Positions 4,975-44,909 of a DNA stretch of 64,000 bases are shown here, one piece after another. The first letter of the stretch is position 1. Each line of letters opens with the position of its first letter. The DNA is taken from sequence record NC_047884.1; one strand, given 5' to 3'. The translations under genes were made by a program, and so were the position numbers. The DNA comes from Escherichia phage saus132. The notes beneath the pieces were generated by a model that was not told the DNA's origin, searched no databases, and saw only the letters and a list, made by a program, of their open reading frames with translations.

Positions 4975-5129
4975 TTGAGATCCTCCAAAGCATATAAACC
5001 ATCCCCATCATTGCAGATTATTACCGCTTCCGAATGATTAGCATAGTATTCATTTGCAGTCTTTACCCATTGTTCGATTTTTTCGATAGTGTCGTGGGTA
5101 GCTGGATGATCGTTAAATATTATTGTCAT
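4971..5129 (-). CDS. hypothetical small protein (52 aa)
   Basis: ATG ORF whose TGA overlaps the ATG of the downstream gene (ATGA); below the track size cutoff. Confidence 0.3.
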   Translation of the reverse strand: MTIIFNDHPATHDTIEKIEQWVKTANEYYANHSEAVIICNDGDGLYALEDLK

Positions 5130-5504
5130 ATCGTCGATTCCTTATAATGTATAAGTTTACCGCCGATAGGCTTTAAGATGTTCCCTAGTTTTTAAAGAGC
5201 ATGGCGGTAAACTTCCCCGCCGTGTAGTTCGTCATTGCCGCCCTACGTGATAAATATTAGGGGAATACCGAAAAGGGCGCAACCATATTTTTGTAAAGAA
5301 ACGTAAAGACAAACGCCACCGCACCACGTCCAGCGGCGCACTAAATTTAATGAAACGGGCGCGCGAATAACACCAAAACAACCATTTTAGCAAGTAATTT
5401 TTTCATTTATATCTGCTCTAGGGTACTTGACAAAATCTAAAATCCTCGTGGTGAGGTTTTCTCGGTGTGCCCCTTATGGTTGCCTATCTTTTCCTTTGAG
5501 GCGC

Positions 5505-7752: not shown

Positions 7753-7992
7753 ATGGCTGTAAGAATTTTACGATATGTGGAACGTAAAGAAACCGATATT
7801 ATGCAACATCATTTAACTGATGCGCAATACGCGCAATTTTTAGAAATGCAGAAAAGCGGAGCTGATACGGCAACGCTAGGAGCGTGGATCAACTCAGTTT
7901 CAACGTGTACGCATTTTGATTCATACGGGTATACGCCAGCCGAAACCGTCCAGATCTTTGATGACTACGAGAAAGAATACATAGCAGACTAA
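7753..7992 (+). CDS. hypothetical protein
   Basis: 79-aa ORF; GGAG RBS. Confidence 0.5.
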   Translation: MAVRILRYVERKETDIMQHHLTDAQYAQFLEMQKSGADTATLGAWINSVSTCTHFDSYGYTPAETVQIFDDYEKEYIAD

Positions 7993-8080
7993 TAATAACG
8001 GGGCGCAACTATCGGCCCCGCTTTTTCTGGCCTTCCTCAAATTTCCCCTTATTAAAATACCTCCTCCAAAAATAAACGCG

Positions 8081-30683: not shown

Positions 30684-31063
30684 AATTGAATACTATTAGG
30701 GGATGATCAGTCCTCCATTTGGCCGTCTAAGGTACCAAAGTTAGTCATTCTGCGCACAGGTTTTTCTCCTGATTCTTTCTTGCGAATGCTCTCTAGTAAT
30801 ACTCAATTGTGGCGGCTCTCCGAAACTCTTCTACTCTAGCCTTAGCAGCTTACTCCCGAACGCATGTCGGGAAAGTCTTACTAAGAACATCAAATAGCAC
30901 CGTTACACTTTGAGCCATTGAATATCAAGAAGCAGAAGGACTTGAACCTTCATGAGATAGACCATTTATCTCAGCCTCGTTTTCGGGTATCTTATGAGGA
31001 GTGGATGTTCCCCTTACGCCCTTTAGGAAGCCCCGTCTACCGATTCCGGCATACTTCAAGATT

Positions 31064-32154: not shown

Positions 32155-32509
32155 AAAATCTTTAAGTTTACTAAGGCTATTAGCTCGGTGTGCGTATTAC
32201 CCTCAGACATTATCCAGTAGAGGATAACCGCTCTTCACAAACCCGATACACTATTCAGTTGCCGCTGAATCTAGTGGACTAATCTAGAACTTCTCCCGAG
32301 TCGTAGGGATCGTGCTTTTTGGCAGCCAGTCCTAGGTCGAGCTAATACCTTAGTGAACTAAATTGATGGATATCAGACTAATTTTGCTACGGCGTTTATC
32401 CTGAGGATCTCTTTTTCGGTAGCTCTGCTAGTGTAGACGTCATACACCTGATATCTAGGCAGCTATTTTCACATCAATTTATATAAATATTATAACAAGA
32501 AATTAAGCA

Positions 32510-33859: not shown

Positions 33860-34336
33860 AATATTATCTTTTTAACCATAGTAAGGTTATACCTAACATG
33901 GTAAATCCAGTACCCAGCCCAATACTTTTTTCTATGAAATTGAAGGTATCAGTATTGACTGCGGTAATTAGTATAGGTATAGACCATAGTACCATGAATA
34001 CTTGAGCTATCTTATATTTCACTTTGCTTTCCTTCTTAACATTTTATAAGATATATTATACAGAGAATTAAGCAAAGTAGCAAATGAATTTTTAATAAAT
34101 TTACTTATTGCGTAGGCCACCTGGAGGGTTCAAGCCCCACGGCTGACAAAGAAGTTTGCGAGACTTCTCTTAAACGCCAGAATAGACCCGCCGATCTATC
34201 GGAACCTACTCAATAAGTAAACTTTCATTTACTTACACCTACCTGGTCGGGAGGATTTTCAGCGACTAGAACCGGCCGGAAACTCATCGCCTTGTTTATC
34301 TAGGAGTCCGTTCTCTAGGAAGCAGAAACCTAAATT

Positions 34337-34410: not shown

Positions 34411-34608
34411 ATAATAAGTCAATCTAGGCAGGACTTGAACCTGCTATCACTTGTGCGGATTTACGAGAACCATTCTTTCACTCGAATCGAACGAGCTTCT
34501 ACCCTCGGCAAGCTGGTGTCCCCTCTCCACCACGCTAGAATGTTTGATAAAGAGTCCGGTGTAGCAATCCGTAAGGGTGCACCTACTGTAGCCTTTACTC
34601 TTTAAATT

Positions 34609-34962: not shown

Positions 34963-35065
34963 ATCTATTTCCTCAGTTGTTAATGAAAAATGGTATCTGT
35001 GACTGAATTCGATATCAGCAATGATAGCTGGTTGGCTACCGGTTTACTTAACTCTACACAGAATT

Positions 35066-41410: not shown

Positions 41411-41623
41411 TCGAATTTTTTAACTTTTTAGTGGAAAAAATCTCAAGGCATTTAGTGGTAGCACGTTGTTGCTACAATAATAGTATATGATTCTAAAGAA
41501 TTAAAGAATTAAATACTAAAGACCTTAGTTGAATAACTTATGGGCTTTTCTTTTGCCTTAAATACAGAAAAGCCCGCGCTCTCGGAGGAAACGCGGGCTT
41601 ATTTCGAAGATTACGTGTAACTA

Positions 41624-42568
41624 TTACTTATTACGCATATCCATAATCATCTGGCCATCATAACCAGTACCTACAACAGTCTGAGGAACGCCACCCTGAT
41701 ATTTTTCAGCGCGTTTCATATCAACTTCCAGCTGTTTCCAGCGAATCATCTCTGGAGTGATGGTACGCTGCAGAGCGGTGTTAGCTTCAGCTTCTTTCTT
41801 AGCCGCATACAGTTTAGCATCTGCGTCACGTTCGTTAGCTACTGCCATATTTTCACGAGCAGAACGATCAGCCTCAGCTTGCTTAACTTTCTGCTGTGCT
41901 TCTTGTTCAACACGAGCTAGTTCAGCTTTTGCAGCGTTAACTTGTTCTTCACGAACTTTGGTGTTTTGTACCTGTTCCATGATTACCGGTGGCAGAGTAA
42001 TATCCTGAAGGAATACTTGCTTAACGGTGTAGCCATAAGGACGCGCATACTCTTCTACTTCTTGCTGAATAGCGGTTTGCAGTTGAGCCTGAATCTTAGC
42101 GTCGAACAGATCTTGTGCTTTTGGTACAGACTTACCAAACTCACGAATCGTAGACAGCATCTTCTCTTCAACGTACTTGTTCAGAGCTTGATCCTGAGTA
42201 CCTGCGTTAACACGGTTCATAGGAGCTTTAGCACCATCAAACTGCAACATAACGGTAATGTCAACTGTAGACTTAAACTTATCCTGGCTAGGAACCTGAA
42301 GTTTATCCAGTTTCATAGAAATATCTTTCGTACTAAAAGTATCAAAAGAGGCGAATGGGTTGACAATATGGAACCCCGGCAATACAGGATTAGGACTAAC
42401 TTTACCCAGGAAAGTCTGAGTTTTAACCGTACCGTCCTGAACAACTGTATAGGAATTGAGAGCCAGAATAAGAGCGCCAAGACCAACTACAGCACCAACA
42501 CCCCAACGTTTAATAGTACGAATTACTTTTTGATCGGAAGTCAGTTCTTTAGTGTTTTTAGTAAACAT
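41624..42568 (-). CDS. SPFH/band-7 (prohibitin/HflC-like) membrane protein
   Basis: 314 aa; N-terminal TM; FLQDITLPPVIMEQV motif and long coiled coil. Confidence 0.55.
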   Translation of the reverse strand: MFTKNTKELTSDQKVIRTIKRWGVGAVVGLGALILALNSYTVVQDGTVKTQTFLGKVSPNPVLPGFHIVNPFASFDTFSTKDISMKLDKLQVPSQDKFKSTVDITVMLQFDGAKAPMNRVNAGTQDQALNKYVEEKMLSTIREFGKSVPKAQDLFDAKIQAQLQTAIQQEVEEYARPYGYTVKQVFLQDITLPPVIMEQVQNTKVREEQVNAAKAELARVEQEAQQKVKQAEADRSARENMAVANERDADAKLYAAKKEAEANTALQRTITPEMIRWKQLEVDMKRAEKYQGGVPQTVVGTGYDGQMIMDMRNK

Positions 42569-42579
42569 ATATTTCCTTA

Positions 42580-42780
42580 TTATTTAGAAGAGTTAGCTAC
42601 TACAGTTACTTTAGTTGCAGAAATAAACAGGCTAGCATCCACAGCAAATTCAGGAGCTTTGATATCTCCGTTATGAAATATGACTATACCGGAGACTACT
42701 TCAAATGCTAGCGCTGTAACATCGGTGGTATTTACTTGTGAATGTTCACCTACTACTTTTACTATATATCGTGTTTTCAC
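42580..42780 (-). CDS. hypothetical small protein
   Basis: 66 aa, GTG start with AGGAAA RBS, downstream of SPFH gene. Confidence 0.4.
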   Translation of the reverse strand: MKTRYIVKVVGEHSQVNTTDVTALAFEVVSGIVIFHNGDIKAPEFAVDASLFISATKVTVVANSSK

Positions 42781-42806
42781 TTTATTTTCCTAGCAGTTAA
42801 TAAAAT

Positions 42807-42881
42807 TGGCCGAGGTGACAGGATTCGAACCTGCATAAAGGAATTTAGAAGACTCCTGCCTATCCCTTAGACTACACCCCG
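42807..42881 (-). tRNA. tRNA-Arg (anticodon UCU)
   Basis: T-arm GCAGG-TTCGAAT-CCTGT; anticodon arm GGAGT-CTTCTAA-ATTCC; CCA encoded. Confidence 0.6.
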
Positions 42882-43777
42882 TTTAGGTATTTTTAAGAAC
42901 TCTTATAAAAGCTCTTAAAGATACCCGACGGTAGGTAGGGTCAGCCCCCTCAGATTAAGCTCTGCAGCCCTTCCGTCAGACAATATCTTCCAGTTTAAGT
43001 CAGGGTGACTTTGTGGTTATGTTCTCCGTATGTGAAGAACTCGGTTAGGCTTAGGTCATGACTCCCAGCCTACTGCTGCCGCTCAACAGGAATTATCGCG
43101 AATTACCTGTACTATTGGGCACCATTAGTGACATCTCTCATGTCAGCGTTTCCCACTCTCATATTCACGCGGTCTGTTAGAATCGCACCTCCGATTTTCG
43201 ATGCGAAGCTGGATGCCTAGTCTCAGGTTAAACGGGGCACACACTAGGCAGTGATCCCGAGTTCCGAGTTTGGTTGAGGCCGTCAGGTTTCCTCGTGGTT
43301 TAGCTGTTTCGATTCTAACCTAATACTGATCAGGTGGCGTACCTCCTGAACTGTCATAGTATGTACTCCAGCAGCGAATGCTTATCCGGTATAAGCCCGA
43401 GTTATCTGATTCTTTCCGACCGCAGGATTCGAACCTGCATCTTCCACCAGTTACGGTTTGATATTACCGTTTATACTAGGACGGCAGTGTTATCACATAA
43501 GTCAGTTCGACACCCCACTAACATAAACTAGAGAAGAGTTTACGAGATTTCGGGACAGCTCCCGAGTTTTCCGCAGATTTTCAGTTCCCTATCAATAGCA
43601 ATAAGCGTTAGCTCGTAGCCTCTCTCAGAGTACTTACTAGTCTCCAACTCACCGACTCTATTCAGTGGAATAGCTATCCTAGTAGGAATCACTAAACTCA
43701 CTCAGCGTAATCGGCTCGCTGTTCTCTAATTTATGAATCTATTATACAGAATTTTGAGGCGTTTAGCAAATCAATTT

Positions 43778-44221
43778 TTAATTAAATTCGCCAGCAACCT
43801 GAGCAGCAATGCCACCGTCGTAACGACCAGGAAACTCTTCCTTAATCGCTTTCATCAGCATACCTTTTGTAATCCCAGGGTTCAACTTAACTAATTCTGC
43901 AAAGTATTTGCGAATCTCAGAATCAGATAACTGAGGCGGCAGATACTGTTGTAGCCATTTGTTCAGTATATACTCATACTGAGCAGACTGCAAGCTATAA
44001 TTATCAAGGTCTTGACCGTGAAGTTTAGCTTTCGTCTGATTAATGCTTTTCAGTTGAGCTTTTAGATAAGATACAAACTGTTCAGAAGTAATGAAGTCTT
44101 TATCAACACGCTGAAGATCTCCGATTATGGTCTGGTAGCTTTTAGCTACTTCTTTATCAGAACCATCAACCTTAGATTCCTGCAAAGCCCTACGCAAAAC
44201 ATCTAGAATATTCTCTTCCAT
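43778..44221 (-). CDS. GatB/YqeY-domain-like protein
   Basis: 147 aa; C-terminal MKAIKEEFPGRYDGGIAAQV resembles YqeY tail. Confidence 0.4.
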   Translation of the reverse strand: MEENILDVLRRALQESKVDGSDKEVAKSYQTIIGDLQRVDKDFITSEQFVSYLKAQLKSINQTKAKLHGQDLDNYSLQSAQYEYILNKWLQQYLPPQLSDSEIRKYFAELVKLNPGITKGMLMKAIKEEFPGRYDGGIAAQVAGEFN

Positions 44222-44391
44222 TATTTAATTCCCAGTGCTTGGTTAAAAGATTGTTCTGTCATAACTGCCGAGACTTTAGCGAAATCAAACTTCTTAGGGT
44301 TTGTAGTAATTTCAGCAACGTTAGTAGTTTTAACTGTTTTCGTAGTACGGATACCACGAGTATTAACACCAATAATTACAACTGATTTCAT
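44221..44391 (-). CDS. hypothetical small protein (56 aa)
   Basis: ATG ORF; TAATG overlap with downstream gene. Confidence 0.3.
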   Translation of the reverse strand: MKSVVIIGVNTRGIRTTKTVKTTNVAEITTNPKKFDFAKVSAVMTEQSFNQALGIK

Positions 44392-44459
44392 ATTTCGCTT
44401 CCTCTCATTAATTTATGAAAGTATTATACAGAAATTTAAGGCTTTAAGCAATCGAATTT

Positions 44460-44909
44460 TTAAGTTTTCTTAACCACAGGCTTGTAGAATGTATGGCCTT
44501 GAATCTTCGTTGTTTTCTTAAACTTCTTTGTCCAGTACGGTTTATCTTTACCACTATGGAAGTATAACGCTCCATGTGTTGGATCTTGTGGTAAATCAAC
44601 GTAGTATATCACTCTAGCTAAATTCTTAGCAACTTGCCAAGCCTCATCGGTTTTATCAACTTTTGGTCTCCTGGCCACCCAAGAGAACTGGTTAGACTGA
44701 TATACTACTTTACAGTAAGAATCAGGAAAAGTACCAGAGTTAACACGGTTTTTAGTAACCTGTGCAACTGCGATCATTCCTTTAGTGCCCTCACCTCGTG
44801 CTTCGAAGTAGATATTTTTTGCAATGCAATCAATCTGCTTTGAGTCGTAGGTCGCATGACTATTGAAGCTATAGGTTAGGGCAGCTATTAAAAGCAAAGC
44901 TGCCTTCAT
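44460..44909 (-). CDS. cell-wall hydrolase (SleB/Hydrolase_2-like) with signal peptide
   Basis: NIYFEARGE...GMIAVAQVTKNRV motif; start set to ATG after GGAG RBS. Confidence 0.5.
   Translation of the reverse strand: MKAALLLIAALTYSFNSHATYDSKQIDCIAKNIYFEARGEGTKGMIAVAQVTKNRVNSGTFPDSYCKVVYQSNQFSWVARRPKVDKTDEAWQVAKNLARVIYYVDLPQDPTHGALYFHSGKDKPYWTKKFKKTTKIQGHTFYKPVVKKT

What the first reader, a model, noticed from the sequence alone, without database searches (positions are those of the whole stretch)
42882..43777. About 900-nt ORF-free transcribed region between a T5-type promoter and tRNA-Arg
A consensus early promoter near 43725-43760 fires leftward into roughly 850 nt with no credible minus-strand ORF, elevated GC relative to the neighbourhood, a single T-arm-like hairpin (43415-43440) and then tRNA-Arg(UCU). 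A promoter-driven non-coding stretch this long in a compact phage genome suggests a large structured RNA or cluster of small RNAs.
Basis: seen in the sequence. Interest (0 to 1): 0.7.

Follow-up and report, generated by a model that had tools for sequence, protein, structure and literature searches.

The report
RNAX: large structured phage RNA
The gene-free stretch is real and encodes "RNAX", a roughly 850-base folded non-coding RNA with a built-in tRNA look-alike, which T5-like phages conserve, GenBank lists only as a "stable RNA with unknown functions", and which resembles the giant phage RNAs GOLLD and ROOL in setting.

Summary
A PN25-type early promoter (-35 at 43769-43764, -10 at 43746-43741) fires leftward into 853 nt (43734-42882, minus strand). 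This stretch has no ORF over 53 aa and is GC-rich (0.45-0.51), and it ends at tRNA-Arg(UCU) (42881-42807).

The window is phage chee130_1 (MF431736). The homologous stretch is annotated in BF23, DT57C and DT571/2 as "rnaX, stable RNA with unknown functions", so its existence is known. No Rfam family matches, and no paper in the searched library describes it.

About 45 relatives in five groups of T5-like phages carry it at 630-1300 nt. Invariant sequence islands are separated by helices that covary:
- tRNA-like element plus next hairpin: 86% of cells paired against 33-47% in slid controls.
- 3' domain: 96% against 33-49%, with 15 pairs changed on both sides.

Only the transcribed strand folds unusually well (z -3.96 against -0.86).

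Anatomy: a dispensable 5' domain, a swappable tRNA-like module (43485-43414), a mid domain, a hairpin with an invariant palindromic loop (GUCAUGAC), a three-way junction and a terminal hairpin.

The viable T5st0 mutant lacks RNAX entirely, so it is accessory. Its function is unknown. My best guess is a self-associating scaffold RNA like GOLLD or ROOL.

The parts
43741..43769 (-). Early sigma-70 promoter of the T5 PN25 type: -35 TTGCTA (43769-43764), 17-nt spacer, -10 TATAAT (43746-43741). The conserved downstream box is TTCATAAATT. Predicted +1 is A at 43734.
   Evidence: Found by the promoter scan. It is conserved in all relatives that keep the 5' domain. BF23 annotates the homologous site as promoter P16-17. 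The resemblance to PN25 is from my own knowledge.
42882..43734 (-). RNAX, the whole predicted non-coding RNA (853 nt). It runs from the predicted start to the base before tRNA-Arg, where RNase P cleavage would create its 3' end.
   Evidence: Homologous to the annotated rnaX of DT57C and BF23. No ORF. MFE z-score is -3.96 on this strand and -0.86 on the other.
43520..43734 (-). 5' domain, which is variable and dispensable. It holds a hairpin CAGCG/CGCUG (43721-43703) whose loop GCCGA can pair with UCGGU (inside 43658-43650) as a putative pseudoknot. It also holds the hairpin CGGGA-GCU-GUCCCG (43566-43550).
   Evidence: Absent in T5 and DT57C. Replaced by an HNH endonuclease ORF in mar003J3 and bux. 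Pectobacterium phage DU_PP_V shows one compensatory change each in the hairpin stem and in the loop pairing. The pseudoknot rests on that single lineage.
43486..43518 (-). Nearly invariant motif in front of the tRNA-like module: GUGGGGUGUCGAA-N14-AACACU.
   Evidence: Conserved from Escherichia and Salmonella phages to Pectobacterium and Serratia phages. As a search pattern it found 31 T5-like contigs out of 33 IMG/VR matches, and nothing credible in 185,579 bacterial genomes.
43414..43485 (-). Embedded tRNA-like module (TLS). It is a cloverleaf with a G1.A72 mismatch, a conserved U5.U68 mismatch, a 3-bp anticodon stem with a 6-nt loop, and no encoded CCA.
   Evidence: Rfam tRNA 29.3 bits against a threshold of 29. 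Covariation in all four stems. The anticodon differs between orthologues: ACU, UAG and CAC by ARAGORN, UCA from the record's annotation. Eps7, GSW6 and an SH9-like phage carry a 47-nt three-way hairpin module instead.
43380..43396 (-). Hairpin H1 (GCUUAU-ACCGG-AUAAGC), just after the tRNA-like module.
   Evidence: Compensatory changes at 2 of 6 pairs. One pair occurs as C-G, U-A and A-U.
43073..43379 (-). Mid domain. It contains the conserved single-stranded motif GCUAAACCACGAGG (43304-43291) and several hairpins. Two alternative sequence types exist among relatives.
   Evidence: RNAalifold on 11 sequences of this type predicts 74 pairs, 22 of them with compensatory changes. That alignment is not curated, so this is the least resolved part.
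43046..43072 (-). Hairpin presenting the invariant 8-nt loop AGUCAUGA. The palindrome GUCAUGAC lies at 43062-43055.
   Evidence: The palindrome is identical in all 42 unique sequences. The stem varies between genera: UAGGC/GCCUA, UAGAC/GUCUA, AGGU/ACCU, GUGAC/GUCAC, GCCACC/GGUGGC. Unconstrained MFE puts the palindrome in the loop in 18 of 23 unique contexts. GAGTCATGAC is unique in the 64-kb window.
43021..43040 (-). Hairpin Ha (GUUCUUC-ACAUACG-GAGAAC).
   Evidence: All 5 pairs predicted by RNAalifold show changes on both sides.
42997..43011 (-). Invariant hairpin AAGUCA-CCC-UGACUU, enclosed by CCA/UGG. It repeats the GUCA/UGAC half-sites of the palindrome.
   Evidence: Three of its 6 pairs never vary, one shows a compensatory A-U to U-A change, and two depart in a single sequence (98% of cells paired). 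Duplicated in wild-type T5. Absent in Serratia phage Slocum.
42925..42979 (-). Three-way junction: a closing helix with one internal mismatch, two hairpins, and the conserved junction UUAAU.
   Evidence: The same topology appears in the MFE of 15 of 16 unique segments whose helix sequences are almost entirely different. Eight of the 10 closing-helix pairs show changes on both sides.
42887..42924 (-). Terminal 17-bp AU-rich hairpin that ends RNAX, 5 nt before tRNA-Arg.
   Evidence: z-score -5.8. 97.9% of cells are paired, with G-U/G-C and U-G/C-G switches. It is kept in Klebsiella and Citrobacter phages that have no tRNA directly after it.
42807..42881 (-). tRNA-Arg(UCU) with encoded CCA, co-transcribed directly downstream.
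   Evidence: Called by ARAGORN and by Rfam at 49.3 bits.
41570..42780 (-). Rest of the predicted transcription unit: a 66-aa ORF (42780-42580), a Band 7/SPFH membrane protein gene (42568-41624) and an intrinsic terminator (41600-41570).
   Evidence: ORF list. Pfam Band_7 at E=8e-20. The terminator scan finds no terminator-like site between the promoter and 41600 on this strand.
43778..44221 (-). Upstream neighbour: a 147-aa protein with a weak YqeY/GatB-tail-like match. It is context and a possible partner only.
   Evidence: Pfam YqeY 25.4 bits, below the cut-off of 27, E=1.7e-5. Annotated as 'tRNA amidotransferase' or 'YqeY domain' in relatives.

Best explanation
The region encodes RNAX, a large (853 nt here) highly structured non-coding RNA of T5-like phages.

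**Shown**
- It is the homologue of the annotated 'stable RNA' RNAX.
- It is conserved at the level of RNA structure across at least five groups of T5-like phages that infect Enterobacterales.
- It is modular: a dispensable 5' domain, a swappable tRNA-like module, and a conserved core.
- It is dispensable for laboratory growth of T5.

**Inferred**
- Host RNA polymerase transcribes it early from a PN25-type promoter, as the first part of a precursor RNAX-tRNA-Arg-ORF66-SPFH.
- RNase P cleavage at the 5' end of tRNA-Arg releases it just after its terminal hairpin.
- The tRNA-like element is probably a structural arm rather than a decoding tRNA.

**Most likely mode of action (speculative, about 0.25-0.3)**
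RNAX acts as an abundant RNA scaffold that pairs with itself through the invariant self-complementary loop AGUCAUGA, forming a dimer or higher oligomer. It would then serve an accessory role linked to the phage tRNA island (translation, tRNA metabolism or defence evasion). That would make it a functional analogue of GOLLD and ROOL.
For: **Identity.** The window is 100% identical to MF431736. Megablast and blastn of the region match about 510-530 T5-like phage records. The homologous region is annotated 'rnaX ... stable RNA with unknown functions' in DT57C (636 nt) and BF23 (784 nt, with promoter P16-17).

**Structure.**
- tRNA-like module plus H1: 85.9% of cells paired against 33-47% in slid controls. 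Twelve pairs changed on both sides against 2-5. Zero of 500 shuffles reach this.
- 3' domain: 95.7% against 33-49%, 15 pairs against 1-4, zero of 500.
- Three-way-junction topology is kept in 15 of 16 unique segments with unrelated helix sequences.
- Hairpin Ha has 5 of 5 pairs compensated.
- The mid domain has 22 of 74 predicted pairs compensated.
- MFE z-score is -3.96 on the sense strand and -0.86 on the antisense strand.

**Not coding.** No conserved ORF and no Pfam match.

**Transcription unit.** Promoter and first terminator are given.

**Dispensability.** The T5st0 record places its deletion junction between remnants of T5p066 and T5p079. Wild-type T5 RNAX has no blastn match in the 25-45 kb stretch of st0 that spans that junction. 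T5st0 is routinely propagated (10.1101/2022.09.22.509047).

**Self-association lead.** The palindrome is invariant in 42 unique sequences. It sits in a hairpin loop whose stem covaries, including in the distant Serratia phage Slocum, where the rest of the 3' domain differs.

**Parallels with GOLLD and ROOL**, all from PMC12286853: phage-encoded, near tRNA islands, non-essential, conserved 3' and variable 5' part, tRNAs sometimes inside the linker, and kissing loops that build homo-oligomers.
Against: - No expression data were available here. 'Stable RNA' rests on a database note whose experimental basis I could not read.
- The 5' end is uncertain by 7 nt.
- An invariant palindrome gives no covariation, so self-pairing is not demonstrated. 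It could equally be a protein site, or pair with the GUCA/UGAC hairpin at 43011-42997.
- The loop also contains GGAG and AUG, so ribosome binding is conceivable.
- No GOLLD or ROOL homology was found.
- The 3'-domain alignment was fitted to the model's structure, which inflates the percentage paired (caveat stated in the tool description).
- The sequences are related, so shuffle counts are not probabilities.
- In this phage the tRNA-like module does not fold into a cloverleaf on its own.
- Loss in T5st0 shows there is no essential function.
Confidence: 0.7

Rival explanations
1. RNAX is a decoy or sponge. Its tRNA-shaped arm and conserved single-stranded motifs would titrate a host factor, for example a tRNA-targeting defence nuclease, RNase P, CCA-adding enzyme, EF-Tu or ribosomes. 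This would protect phage translation. On this reading, oligomerisation is irrelevant.
For: - The tRNA-like module is embedded and keeps odd features (U5.U68 mismatch, non-canonical anticodon loop) across genera.
- RNAX lies at the edge of the phage tRNA island.
- T5 tRNAs are reported to counter PARIS and retron toxins (titles and abstracts of PMC11464382 and text of PMC10644984).
- RNAX is accessory and lost in T5st0.
- The neighbouring gene has a weak YqeY (tRNA-binding tail) match.
- GOLLD is reported to pull down ribosomes.
Against: - Eps7, GSW6 and SH9-like phages replace the tRNA-like module with a plain 47-nt hairpin module and keep the rest of RNAX. The tRNA shape therefore cannot be the essential active part.
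- About 780 nt of conserved non-tRNA structure would be unexplained.
- No target is identified.
Confidence: 0.15
2. The region is a cis-acting leader or processing platform. On this reading RNAX has no function of its own. Its folds only control processing, stability or expression of the co-transcribed tRNA-Arg and the downstream SPFH operon.
For: - It is in the same transcription unit, with no terminator before 41600.
- The terminal hairpin lies 5 nt before the tRNA.
- tRNA-like elements are known processing signals (own knowledge: the MALAT1 mascRNA).
Against: - The downstream partner is not conserved. Klebsiella phages have no tRNA there. In YZU-L1, 26175I and GSW6 a 510-nt ORF follows RNAX instead of the tRNA, and bux has the same ORF inserted between RNAX and its tRNA-Arg. 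Serratia phage Slocum has tRNA-Leu. The RNAX core persists in all of these.
- 630-1300 nt of covarying structure with invariant loops is far more than a leader needs.
- Other tRNAs in the same island are expressed without it.
Confidence: 0.08
3. The region is a graveyard or cluster of separate small elements. These would be decayed tRNA genes, footprints of homing-endonuclease traffic, and perhaps a few independent small stable RNAs, with no overall fold.
For: - One tRNA-like element that annotators variously call tRNA-Ser, Sec, Pro, Val, Leu, OTHER or pseudo.
- HNH ORFs insert here.
- Large insertions, deletions and mosaic module exchange between phages.
- A truncated tRNA fragment in Slocum.
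- The same island holds several short stable RNAs.
Against: - Only one part resembles a tRNA by Rfam or ARAGORN.
- Invariant non-tRNA motifs persist across genera.
- Helices that enclose 55-300 nt covary.
- Strand-specific folding energy indicates purifying selection on one large RNA.
Confidence: 0.05
4. The region is a DNA-level element, such as a replication origin, nick or recombination site or protein-binding palindrome. Alternatively it is a coding region read in an unusual way.
For: - The palindrome GTCATGAC is also a perfect DNA inverted repeat.
- T5 records annotate a nick and a 'repeat c' copy nearby.
Against: - Many conserved pairs are G-U, which exist only on the transcribed strand.
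- The antisense strand shows no excess folding.
- Covariation keeps RNA helices, not DNA sequence.
- The palindrome is unique in the 64 kb.
- No ORF is conserved, and insertions and deletions are not constrained to a reading frame.
Confidence: 0.02

Closest known systems
RNAX (gene rnaX) of phages BF23, DT57C and DT571/2. It is annotated in GenBank AJ604530/NC_042564, KM979354/NC_027356 and KM979355 as 'stable RNA with unknown functions'.
   Same: - Same genomic position: after the ORF076/YqeY-like gene and its early promoter, directly before tRNA-Arg(UCU).
- Alignable sequence: about 84% identity over the 3' 360 nt, and 75-83% over the parts that blastn aligns, which cover 50-75% of the RNA.
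- Same tRNA-like module, palindromic loop and terminal hairpin.
   Different: - The window copy is longer (853 nt against 636 and 784 nt).
- It has the Epseptimavirus-type mid domain and three-way junction, with different helix sequences.
- It is unannotated in its own record.
- I found no published description of RNAX structure or function.
[quoted passage not shown]
   Same: - A large RNA, phage- or prophage-encoded, of unknown function, often near tRNA islands.
[quoted passage not shown]
- tRNAs are sometimes embedded in a variable linker.
- Loop-loop contacts are important in its architecture (PMC12286853).
   Different: - No match to the Rfam model even at E<=10.
- Different hosts: Lactobacillales, mycobacteria and marine samples, against Enterobacterales.
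- GOLLD's 14-mer cage is proven, whereas RNAX oligomerisation is only a lead.
ROOL RNA (Rumen-Originating, Ornate, Large).
   Same: - Phage- or prophage-encoded, near tRNA islands.
- Abundant yet non-essential, and functions without known proteins.
- Conserved quaternary kissing loops.
   Different: - No Rfam match.
- ROOL is about 580 nt with several pseudoknots (size from my own knowledge).
- There is no sign of shared motifs.
Short stable RNAs of the T5 tRNA region (RNAI, RNAIII, RNA1, RNA2H, RNAIV, RNA3), and the T4 'species 1 and 2' RNAs (the T4 RNAs from my own knowledge).
   Same: - Non-coding RNAs of unknown function, co-transcribed and processed with phage tRNAs.
- Homologues of six of the T5 set are present in this window.
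   Different: They are 70-170 nt long. RNAX is five to ten times larger and multi-domain.
tRNA-like modules inside larger RNAs: bacterial Y RNA YrlA (PMC4201824), and MALAT1 mascRNA and plant-virus tRNA-like structures (own knowledge).
   Same: A cloverleaf or elbow mimic that lacks decoding features and is embedded in a non-tRNA transcript.
   Different: - No Rfam match to these families.
- In RNAX the module is optional, being replaced by a hairpin module in some phages.
- It sits in the middle of the RNA, not at its end.

Membership tests
RNAX of T5-like phages (GenBank annotation) | Sequence homology to an annotated rnaX. | tested here: met
   blastn and megablast hit DT57C, DT571/2 and BF23, with the feature 'rnaX: RNAX' under the match. 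The multiple alignment shows shared motifs along the whole length.
RNAX of T5-like phages (GenBank annotation) | Synteny: an early promoter after the ORF076/YqeY-like gene, with the RNA ending at tRNA-Arg(UCU). | tested here: met
   The same gene order appears in the window, DT57C, BF23 and T5. The promoter is aligned with BF23 P16-17.
RNAX of T5-like phages (GenBank annotation) | Accumulates as a stable RNA in infected cells. | not testable with these tools
   The only support is the database note. No transcript data for T5-like phages were found in the library.
tRNA (Rfam RF00005), for the element at 43414-43485 | Cloverleaf that scores above the family threshold. | tested here: inconclusive
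   29.3 bits against a threshold of 29. ARAGORN makes no call in the window. Orthologues score 26.6-39.6 bits. The four stems covary. The isolated window copy does not give a cloverleaf as its MFE.
tRNA (Rfam RF00005), for the element at 43414-43485 | Canonical 5-bp anticodon stem with a 7-nt loop, and an anticodon identity conserved among orthologues. | tested here: not met
   The stem has 3-4 bp and the loop is the 6-nt GUAACU. The anticodon is called ACU, UAG and CAC by ARAGORN. GenBank records call it SeC(UCA), Pro or 'OTHER'.
tRNA (Rfam RF00005), for the element at 43414-43485 | Fully paired acceptor stem. | tested here: not met
   Pair 5:68 is unpaired in 13 of 16 sequences and pair 1:72 in 9 of 16. 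Read from the sequences, these are U.U and G.A.
tRNA (Rfam RF00005), for the element at 43414-43485 | Presence in all orthologous loci, if it were a functional tRNA gene. | tested here: not met
   Eps7, GSW6 and the SH9-like contig have a 47-nt non-tRNA module between the same flanks.
GOLLD / ROOL / OLE large ornate RNAs | Match to the family covariance model. | tested here: not met
   cmscan of 42000-44500 at E<=10 returns only tRNA and chance hits. Seven relatives at E<=1 give the same result. These families are in Rfam according to PMC12286853.
GOLLD / ROOL / OLE large ornate RNAs | Large, multi-helix, covariation-supported fold, phage-encoded and next to a tRNA island. | tested here: met
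   This is a resemblance of kind, not homology.
GOLLD / ROOL / OLE large ornate RNAs | RNA-only homo-oligomer (dimer or nanocage). | not testable with these tools
   The only lead is an invariant self-complementary hairpin loop.
   No hit at E<=10. ARAGORN finds no tmRNA.

The most novel reading that the evidence does not exclude
RNAX is a third, enterobacterial class of giant 'ornate' phage RNA. It would be functionally equivalent to GOLLD and ROOL although unrelated in sequence. It would assemble into an RNA-only dimer or cage through the invariant palindromic loop AGUCAUGA, with the tRNA-like module as the variable 'linker' cargo. It would act on the translation or tRNA economy of the infected cell. 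Because it sits in T5 and the BASEL-type phages of E. coli K-12, it would make the unsolved question of what such RNAs do genetically testable.
Probability: 0.2. Interest if true: 0.85.

Novelty: new member of a known kind. Interest (0 to 1): 0.6.

Why it matters
T5 is a classic model phage, yet one of its longest non-coding features has only a database label. It has no Rfam family, no published structure and no known function. In many GenBank records it is overwritten by spurious 'hypothetical protein' calls and by contradictory tRNA calls.

Large structured RNAs next to phage tRNA islands (GOLLD, ROOL) are a current puzzle, because their hosts are hard to work with. RNAX shares the setting and some of the anatomy in phages of E. 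coli and Salmonella, and a natural deletion mutant (T5st0) already exists.

Even if the analogy fails, a covariation-supported family of 0.6-1.3 kb RNAs deserves a curated model. So does its swappable tRNA-shaped module and its invariant palindromic loop. That model would also correct the annotation of more than 500 phage genomes.

Tried and rejected
- **Rfam.** Gathering thresholds on the whole window and E<=10 on the region gave only tRNA hits. There was no tmRNA, RNase P RNA, intron, 6S, GOLLD, ROOL or Y RNA.
- **Coding.** ORF lists, Pfam on the two longest internal ORFs, and ORF positions in 20 relatives showed nothing conserved.
- **Metagenome scan.** The pattern AACACTGCCNNNNTNGTNTA was too unspecific. 
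- **Bacterial-genome scan.** The 18-base motif gave 6 hits. None has RNAX features, and the four I read lie in unrelated sequence, so I judge all six to be chance.
- **IMG/VR scans.** These returned almost only phages already in GenBank.
- **Alignment.** MAFFT alignments put the three-way-junction helices out of register and misplaced the Klebsiella insertions. Structure-aware MAFFT was not installed. I therefore used a covariance model seeded on five Epseptimavirus sequences, and the first run had to be repeated because the palindromic terminal hairpin also matched on the reverse strand.
- **Other pairings.** I considered a GNRA-receptor motif in the palindrome hairpin, a mini-ORF or Shine-Dalgarno reading of GGAGUCAUGA, and a loop-loop contact between the motif before the tRNA-like module and the Ha loop. 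None is consistent across the sequence types.
- **Literature.** Searches for RNAX, T5 stable RNAs, T5 transcriptomes and ncRNAs of Demerecviridae found nothing relevant. The T5 re-annotation paper I tried by PMC id is not held.
- **Distant relatives.** I did not reach the more distant T5-like phages of Vibrio, Proteus, Providencia or Aeromonas, so the outer limit of the family is unknown.
Full report
**1.

The region is 100% identical to Bacteriophage T5-like chee130_1 (MF431736, genus Epseptimavirus) at the same coordinates. There, the stretch between CDS P1301_0079 and tRNA-Arg carries no annotation.

- A sigma-70 promoter, TTGCTA-17 nt-TATAAT, lies at 43769-43741 on the minus strand. It is one of only two consensus sites in 3 kb.
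- The promoter is followed by the box TTCATAAATT. From my own knowledge this matches T5 early promoters such as PN25 and places +1 at 43734.
- Between the stop codon of the upstream gene (43778) and tRNA-Arg(UCU) (42881-42807), the longest minus-strand ORF is 53 aa and the longest plus-strand ORF is 65 aa. Neither has a Pfam match.
- GC rises to 0.45-0.51, against 0.33-0.41 on either side.
- The 'T-arm-like hairpin' belongs to a complete 72-nt cloverleaf at 43414-43485. It scores 29.3 bits on the Rfam tRNA model, just over the threshold of 29. ARAGORN does not call it.

**2. It already has a name**

The homologous region is annotated as misc_RNA 'rnaX / RNAX, stable RNA with unknown functions' in three records.
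- DT57C: 636 nt.
- DT571/2.
- The BF23 tRNA-region record AJ604530: 784 nt, preceded by 'promoter P16-17' and followed by tRNA-Arg.

Wild-type T5 (AY587007) shows an 837-nt unannotated gap there, with a pseudo-tRNA in the middle. BF23 and DT57C start RNAX 7 nt downstream of my predicted +1, so the 5' end is either 43734 or 43727.

No paper in the searchable library mentions RNAX, T5 stable RNAs of this size, or a T5 transcriptome. Rfam 15 has no matching family even at E<=10. Seven relatives also give only tRNA hits.

**3. Distribution**

- Megablast and blastn find the region in about 510-530 phage records, all with T5-like genome sizes where listed. The named hosts are mainly Salmonella, Escherichia and Klebsiella, with a few Shigella, Citrobacter, Yersinia and Pectobacterium records.
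- Following the neighbouring hydrolase gene also revealed a diverged homologue in Serratia phage Slocum.
- The nearly invariant motif GGGGTG-NN-GAA-N14-AACACTGCC retrieved 33 IMG/VR stretches. Thirty-one of them lie in 104-123 kb T5-like genomes, or in the BF23 tRNA-region record.
- The six matches in 185,579 bacterial and archaeal genomes show none of the other RNAX features. The four I read lie in unrelated sequence, so I judge all six to be chance.
- As far as I could see, the element is therefore specific to T5-like phages of Enterobacterales. More distant T5-like phages were not reached.

**4. Anatomy**

RNAX length ranges from about 630 to 1300 nt. Alignments show islands of near-invariant sequence separated by segments that differ completely between lineages yet form the same helices. 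In window coordinates, minus strand:

(a) **5' domain, 43734-43520.**
- It has a hairpin at 43721-43703 whose loop can pair with 43658-43650, and a second hairpin at 43566-43550.
- The domain is missing in T5 and DT57C. An HNH endonuclease ORF replaces it in mar003J3 and bux, so it is dispensable.
- Only the Pectobacterium phage provides compensatory changes for the hairpin and the pseudoknot.

(b) **Invariant motif** in front of the tRNA-like module, 43518-43486.

(c) **tRNA-like module, 43485-43414.**

(d) **Hairpin H1, 43396-43380.**

(e) **Mid domain, 43379-43073.**
- It includes the conserved motif GCUAAACCACGAGG and comes in two alternative sequence types.
- RNAalifold on 11 sequences predicts 74 pairs, 22 of them compensated. 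The alignment is uncurated.

(f) **Palindromic-loop hairpin, 43072-43046,** with the 8-nt loop AGUCAUGA.

(g) **Hairpin Ha, 43040-43021.** All five pairs are compensated.

(h) **Invariant hairpin AAGUCA-CCC-UGACUU, 43011-42997.**

(i) **Three-way junction, 42979-42925.**

(j) **Terminal hairpin, 42924-42887.** It is 17 bp long, with z = -5.8. It lies 5 nt before tRNA-Arg.

**5. Is the fold real?**

- *tRNA-like module plus H1* (16 sequences, MAFFT alignment, structure set by me). 85.9% of cells are paired, against 33-47% when partners are slid by 1-3 columns. Twelve pairs changed on both sides, against 2-5. Zero of 500 shuffles reach the observed values.
- *3' domain.* I built a covariance model from five Epseptimavirus sequences with a hand-drawn structure and aligned 25 distinct homologues to it. 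95.7% of cells are paired, against 33-49%. Fifteen pairs changed on both sides, against 1-4. Zero of 500 shuffles reach this. Eight of the ten pairs in the helix that closes the three-way junction are compensated.
- *Caveat.* That alignment is fitted to the model, and the sequences are related, so these numbers overstate independence.
- *Model-free check.* Folding only the segment between two conserved anchors gives the same topology (closing helix, two hairpins) in 15 of 16 unique sequences whose helix sequences are almost entirely different.
- *Strand specificity.* The 853-nt sense strand folds with z = -3.96 (0 of 20 shuffles as stable). The antisense strand gives z = -0.86. Together with the many conserved G-U pairs, this places selection on the RNA, not the DNA.

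**6. The tRNA-like module is not a working tRNA**

- Its four stems covary, but pair 5:68 is unpaired in 13 of 16 sequences. Read from the sequences it is U.U, and it is also U.U in the Serratia and Pectobacterium phages.
- Pair 1:72 is unpaired in 9 of 16 sequences (G.A).
- The anticodon arm has a 3-4 bp stem and a 6-nt loop. No CCA is encoded, whereas the neighbouring tRNA-Arg has one.
- Annotators and ARAGORN assign it to Ser(ACU), SeC(UCA), Leu(UAG), Val(CAC), Pro, OTHER or pseudo.
- In Eps7, GSW6 and an SH9-like genome the same flanks enclose a 47-nt module. It has a closing stem and two small hairpins in place of the cloverleaf.
- Klebsiella phages carry a version with an enlarged anticodon arm.
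- I therefore read it as an exchangeable peripheral arm on a conserved helix. Whether RNase P or RNase Z cut at it is unknown. The invariant AACACU directly upstream could pair with GGUGU, but there is no variation to test this.

**7. The palindromic loop**

- GUCAUGAC is identical in all 42 unique sequences, including Slocum, where the remainder of the 3' domain is not alignable.
- The stem below it changes between lineages: UAGGC/GCCUA, UAGAC/GUCUA, AGGU/ACCU, GUGAC/GUCAC, GCCACC/GGUGGC.
- Unconstrained folding puts the palindrome in the loop in 18 of 23 unique contexts (window copy).
- The 10-mer is unique in the 64-kb window, so it is not a repeated operator.
- An invariant self-complementary sequence held in a loop is the arrangement used for kissing-loop dimerisation (own knowledge: the HIV-1 dimerisation site). 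It is also used in OLE, ROOL and GOLLD assemblies.
- This is a lead, not a demonstration. The loop could instead bind a protein, or pair with the invariant GUCA/UGAC hairpin at 43011-42997, which Slocum lacks. Through its GGAG and AUG it could also contact the ribosome.

**8. Expression unit and dispensability**

- The scan finds no terminator-like site on the minus strand between the promoter and 41600-41570.
- The predicted primary transcript is therefore RNAX, then tRNA-Arg, then a 66-aa ORF, then a Band 7/SPFH protein gene (Pfam E = 8e-20).
- RNase P processing of tRNA-Arg would set the RNAX 3' end (inference).
- The downstream partner is not conserved. Klebsiella phages have no tRNA there. 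In YZU-L1, 26175I and GSW6 a 510-nt ORF follows RNAX instead of the tRNA, and bux has the same ORF inserted between RNAX and its tRNA-Arg. Slocum has tRNA-Leu. This argues against RNAX being merely a leader.
- In the T5st0 record the deletion junction lies between remnants of T5p066 and T5p079. Wild-type T5 RNAX has no blastn match in the 25-45 kb stretch of st0 that spans that junction.
- T5st0 is a standard, readily propagated laboratory strain (10.1101/2022.09.22.509047).
- RNAX is therefore accessory under laboratory conditions, like ROOL.

**9. How it most likely works**

- *Shown:* a conserved, modular, structured, non-coding element. It is dispensable and specific to T5-like phages.
- *Inferred:* early transcription, release by RNase P, and accumulation as a stable RNA (the last from the database note).
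- *Speculative (about 0.25-0.3):* it self-associates through the palindromic loop and acts as an RNA scaffold connected with the phage tRNA island.

The comparison with GOLLD and ROOL concerns what it may work like, not homology. The shared features are:
- phage origin and position next to a tRNA island;
- large size and non-essentiality;
- a conserved 3' part and a variable 5' part;
- a tRNA in a variable region;
- conserved loop-loop contacts.

The covariance-model test for membership failed.

*Rival readings:* a decoy for tRNA-binding factors (0.15), a cis-acting leader (0.08), a graveyard of small elements (0.05), and a DNA element or hidden coding region (0.02).

**10. Verdict**

The element is not new as an object, because RNAX has been in GenBank records of relatives for years. 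It is essentially uncharacterised, however: no Rfam family, no published structure, and inconsistent annotation across hundreds of genomes.

New here are the covariation-supported domain map, the optional tRNA-shaped module, the invariant palindromic loop, the family range, and the explicit link to the GOLLD/ROOL problem.

I rate it 'new member of a known kind', with interest 0.6.

Noticed in passing
window 30810-30916, 30917-31060, 32235-32347, 34109-34209, 34418-34542, 34991-35063 (minus strand): The window holds homologues (81-97% identity) of six other short 'stable RNAs' annotated in T5 and DT57C: RNAI, RNA1, RNA2H, RNAIV, rna2 and RNA3. All are of unknown function, and none matched an Rfam family at gathering threshold.
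   Followed up: partly
window 43778-44221 (minus strand): The gene just upstream of the RNAX promoter has a weak C-terminal match to the YqeY/GatB-tail family (25.4 bits, cut-off 27). From my own knowledge this domain binds tRNA in GatB. It could be a partner of the tRNA-like module or of the phage tRNAs. In T5st0 only the first 173 nt of its T5 homologue (ORF076/T5p079) remain.
   Followed up: no
L009 115-597 (mar003J3); L020 415-897 and 1528-2037 (bux): A 160-aa ORF, annotated as putative HNH endonuclease in mar003J3, replaces the RNAX 5' domain in these phages. In bux a 510-nt ORF is also inserted between RNAX and tRNA-Arg. RNAX therefore tolerates, or attracts, mobile-gene insertion at its edges.
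   Followed up: partly
L025 about 7775-8004 (wild-type T5, minus strand): T5 carries an internal duplication of the AAGUCACCUUGACUUAAACUGGAA module of the 3' domain, separated by an extra hairpin. The covariance model matches twice.
   Followed up: no
L019 419-1333; L007 648-1694; L021 and L022; L023 396-1074: Many GenBank records cover RNAX with three to six short 'hypothetical protein' CDSs on either strand. They also give the tRNA-like module contradictory names (tRNA-Sec, Ser, Pro, Val, Leu, OTHER, pseudo). These look like annotation artefacts.
   Followed up: partly
L146 about 5125-5190 (Serratia phage Slocum): Just before tRNA-Leu, the Slocum homologue contains a truncated tRNA-like fragment. 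It has an anticodon arm with CAU, a T arm and an ACCA end, and ARAGORN does not call it.
   Followed up: no
window 43734-43727 and L002 872; also L013-L015: The box TATAAT-N2-3-TTCATAAATT recurs at other early promoters of the same region in several T5-like genomes. One example lies about 680 nt upstream of the RNAX promoter, in front of the DUF7616 gene.
   Followed up: no
window 41624-42780 (minus strand): A 66-aa ORF followed by a Band 7/SPFH membrane protein is co-transcribed with RNAX and tRNA-Arg. This layout recalls NfeD-SPFH gene pairs (own knowledge). T5 and BF23 lack the 66-aa ORF.
   Followed up: no
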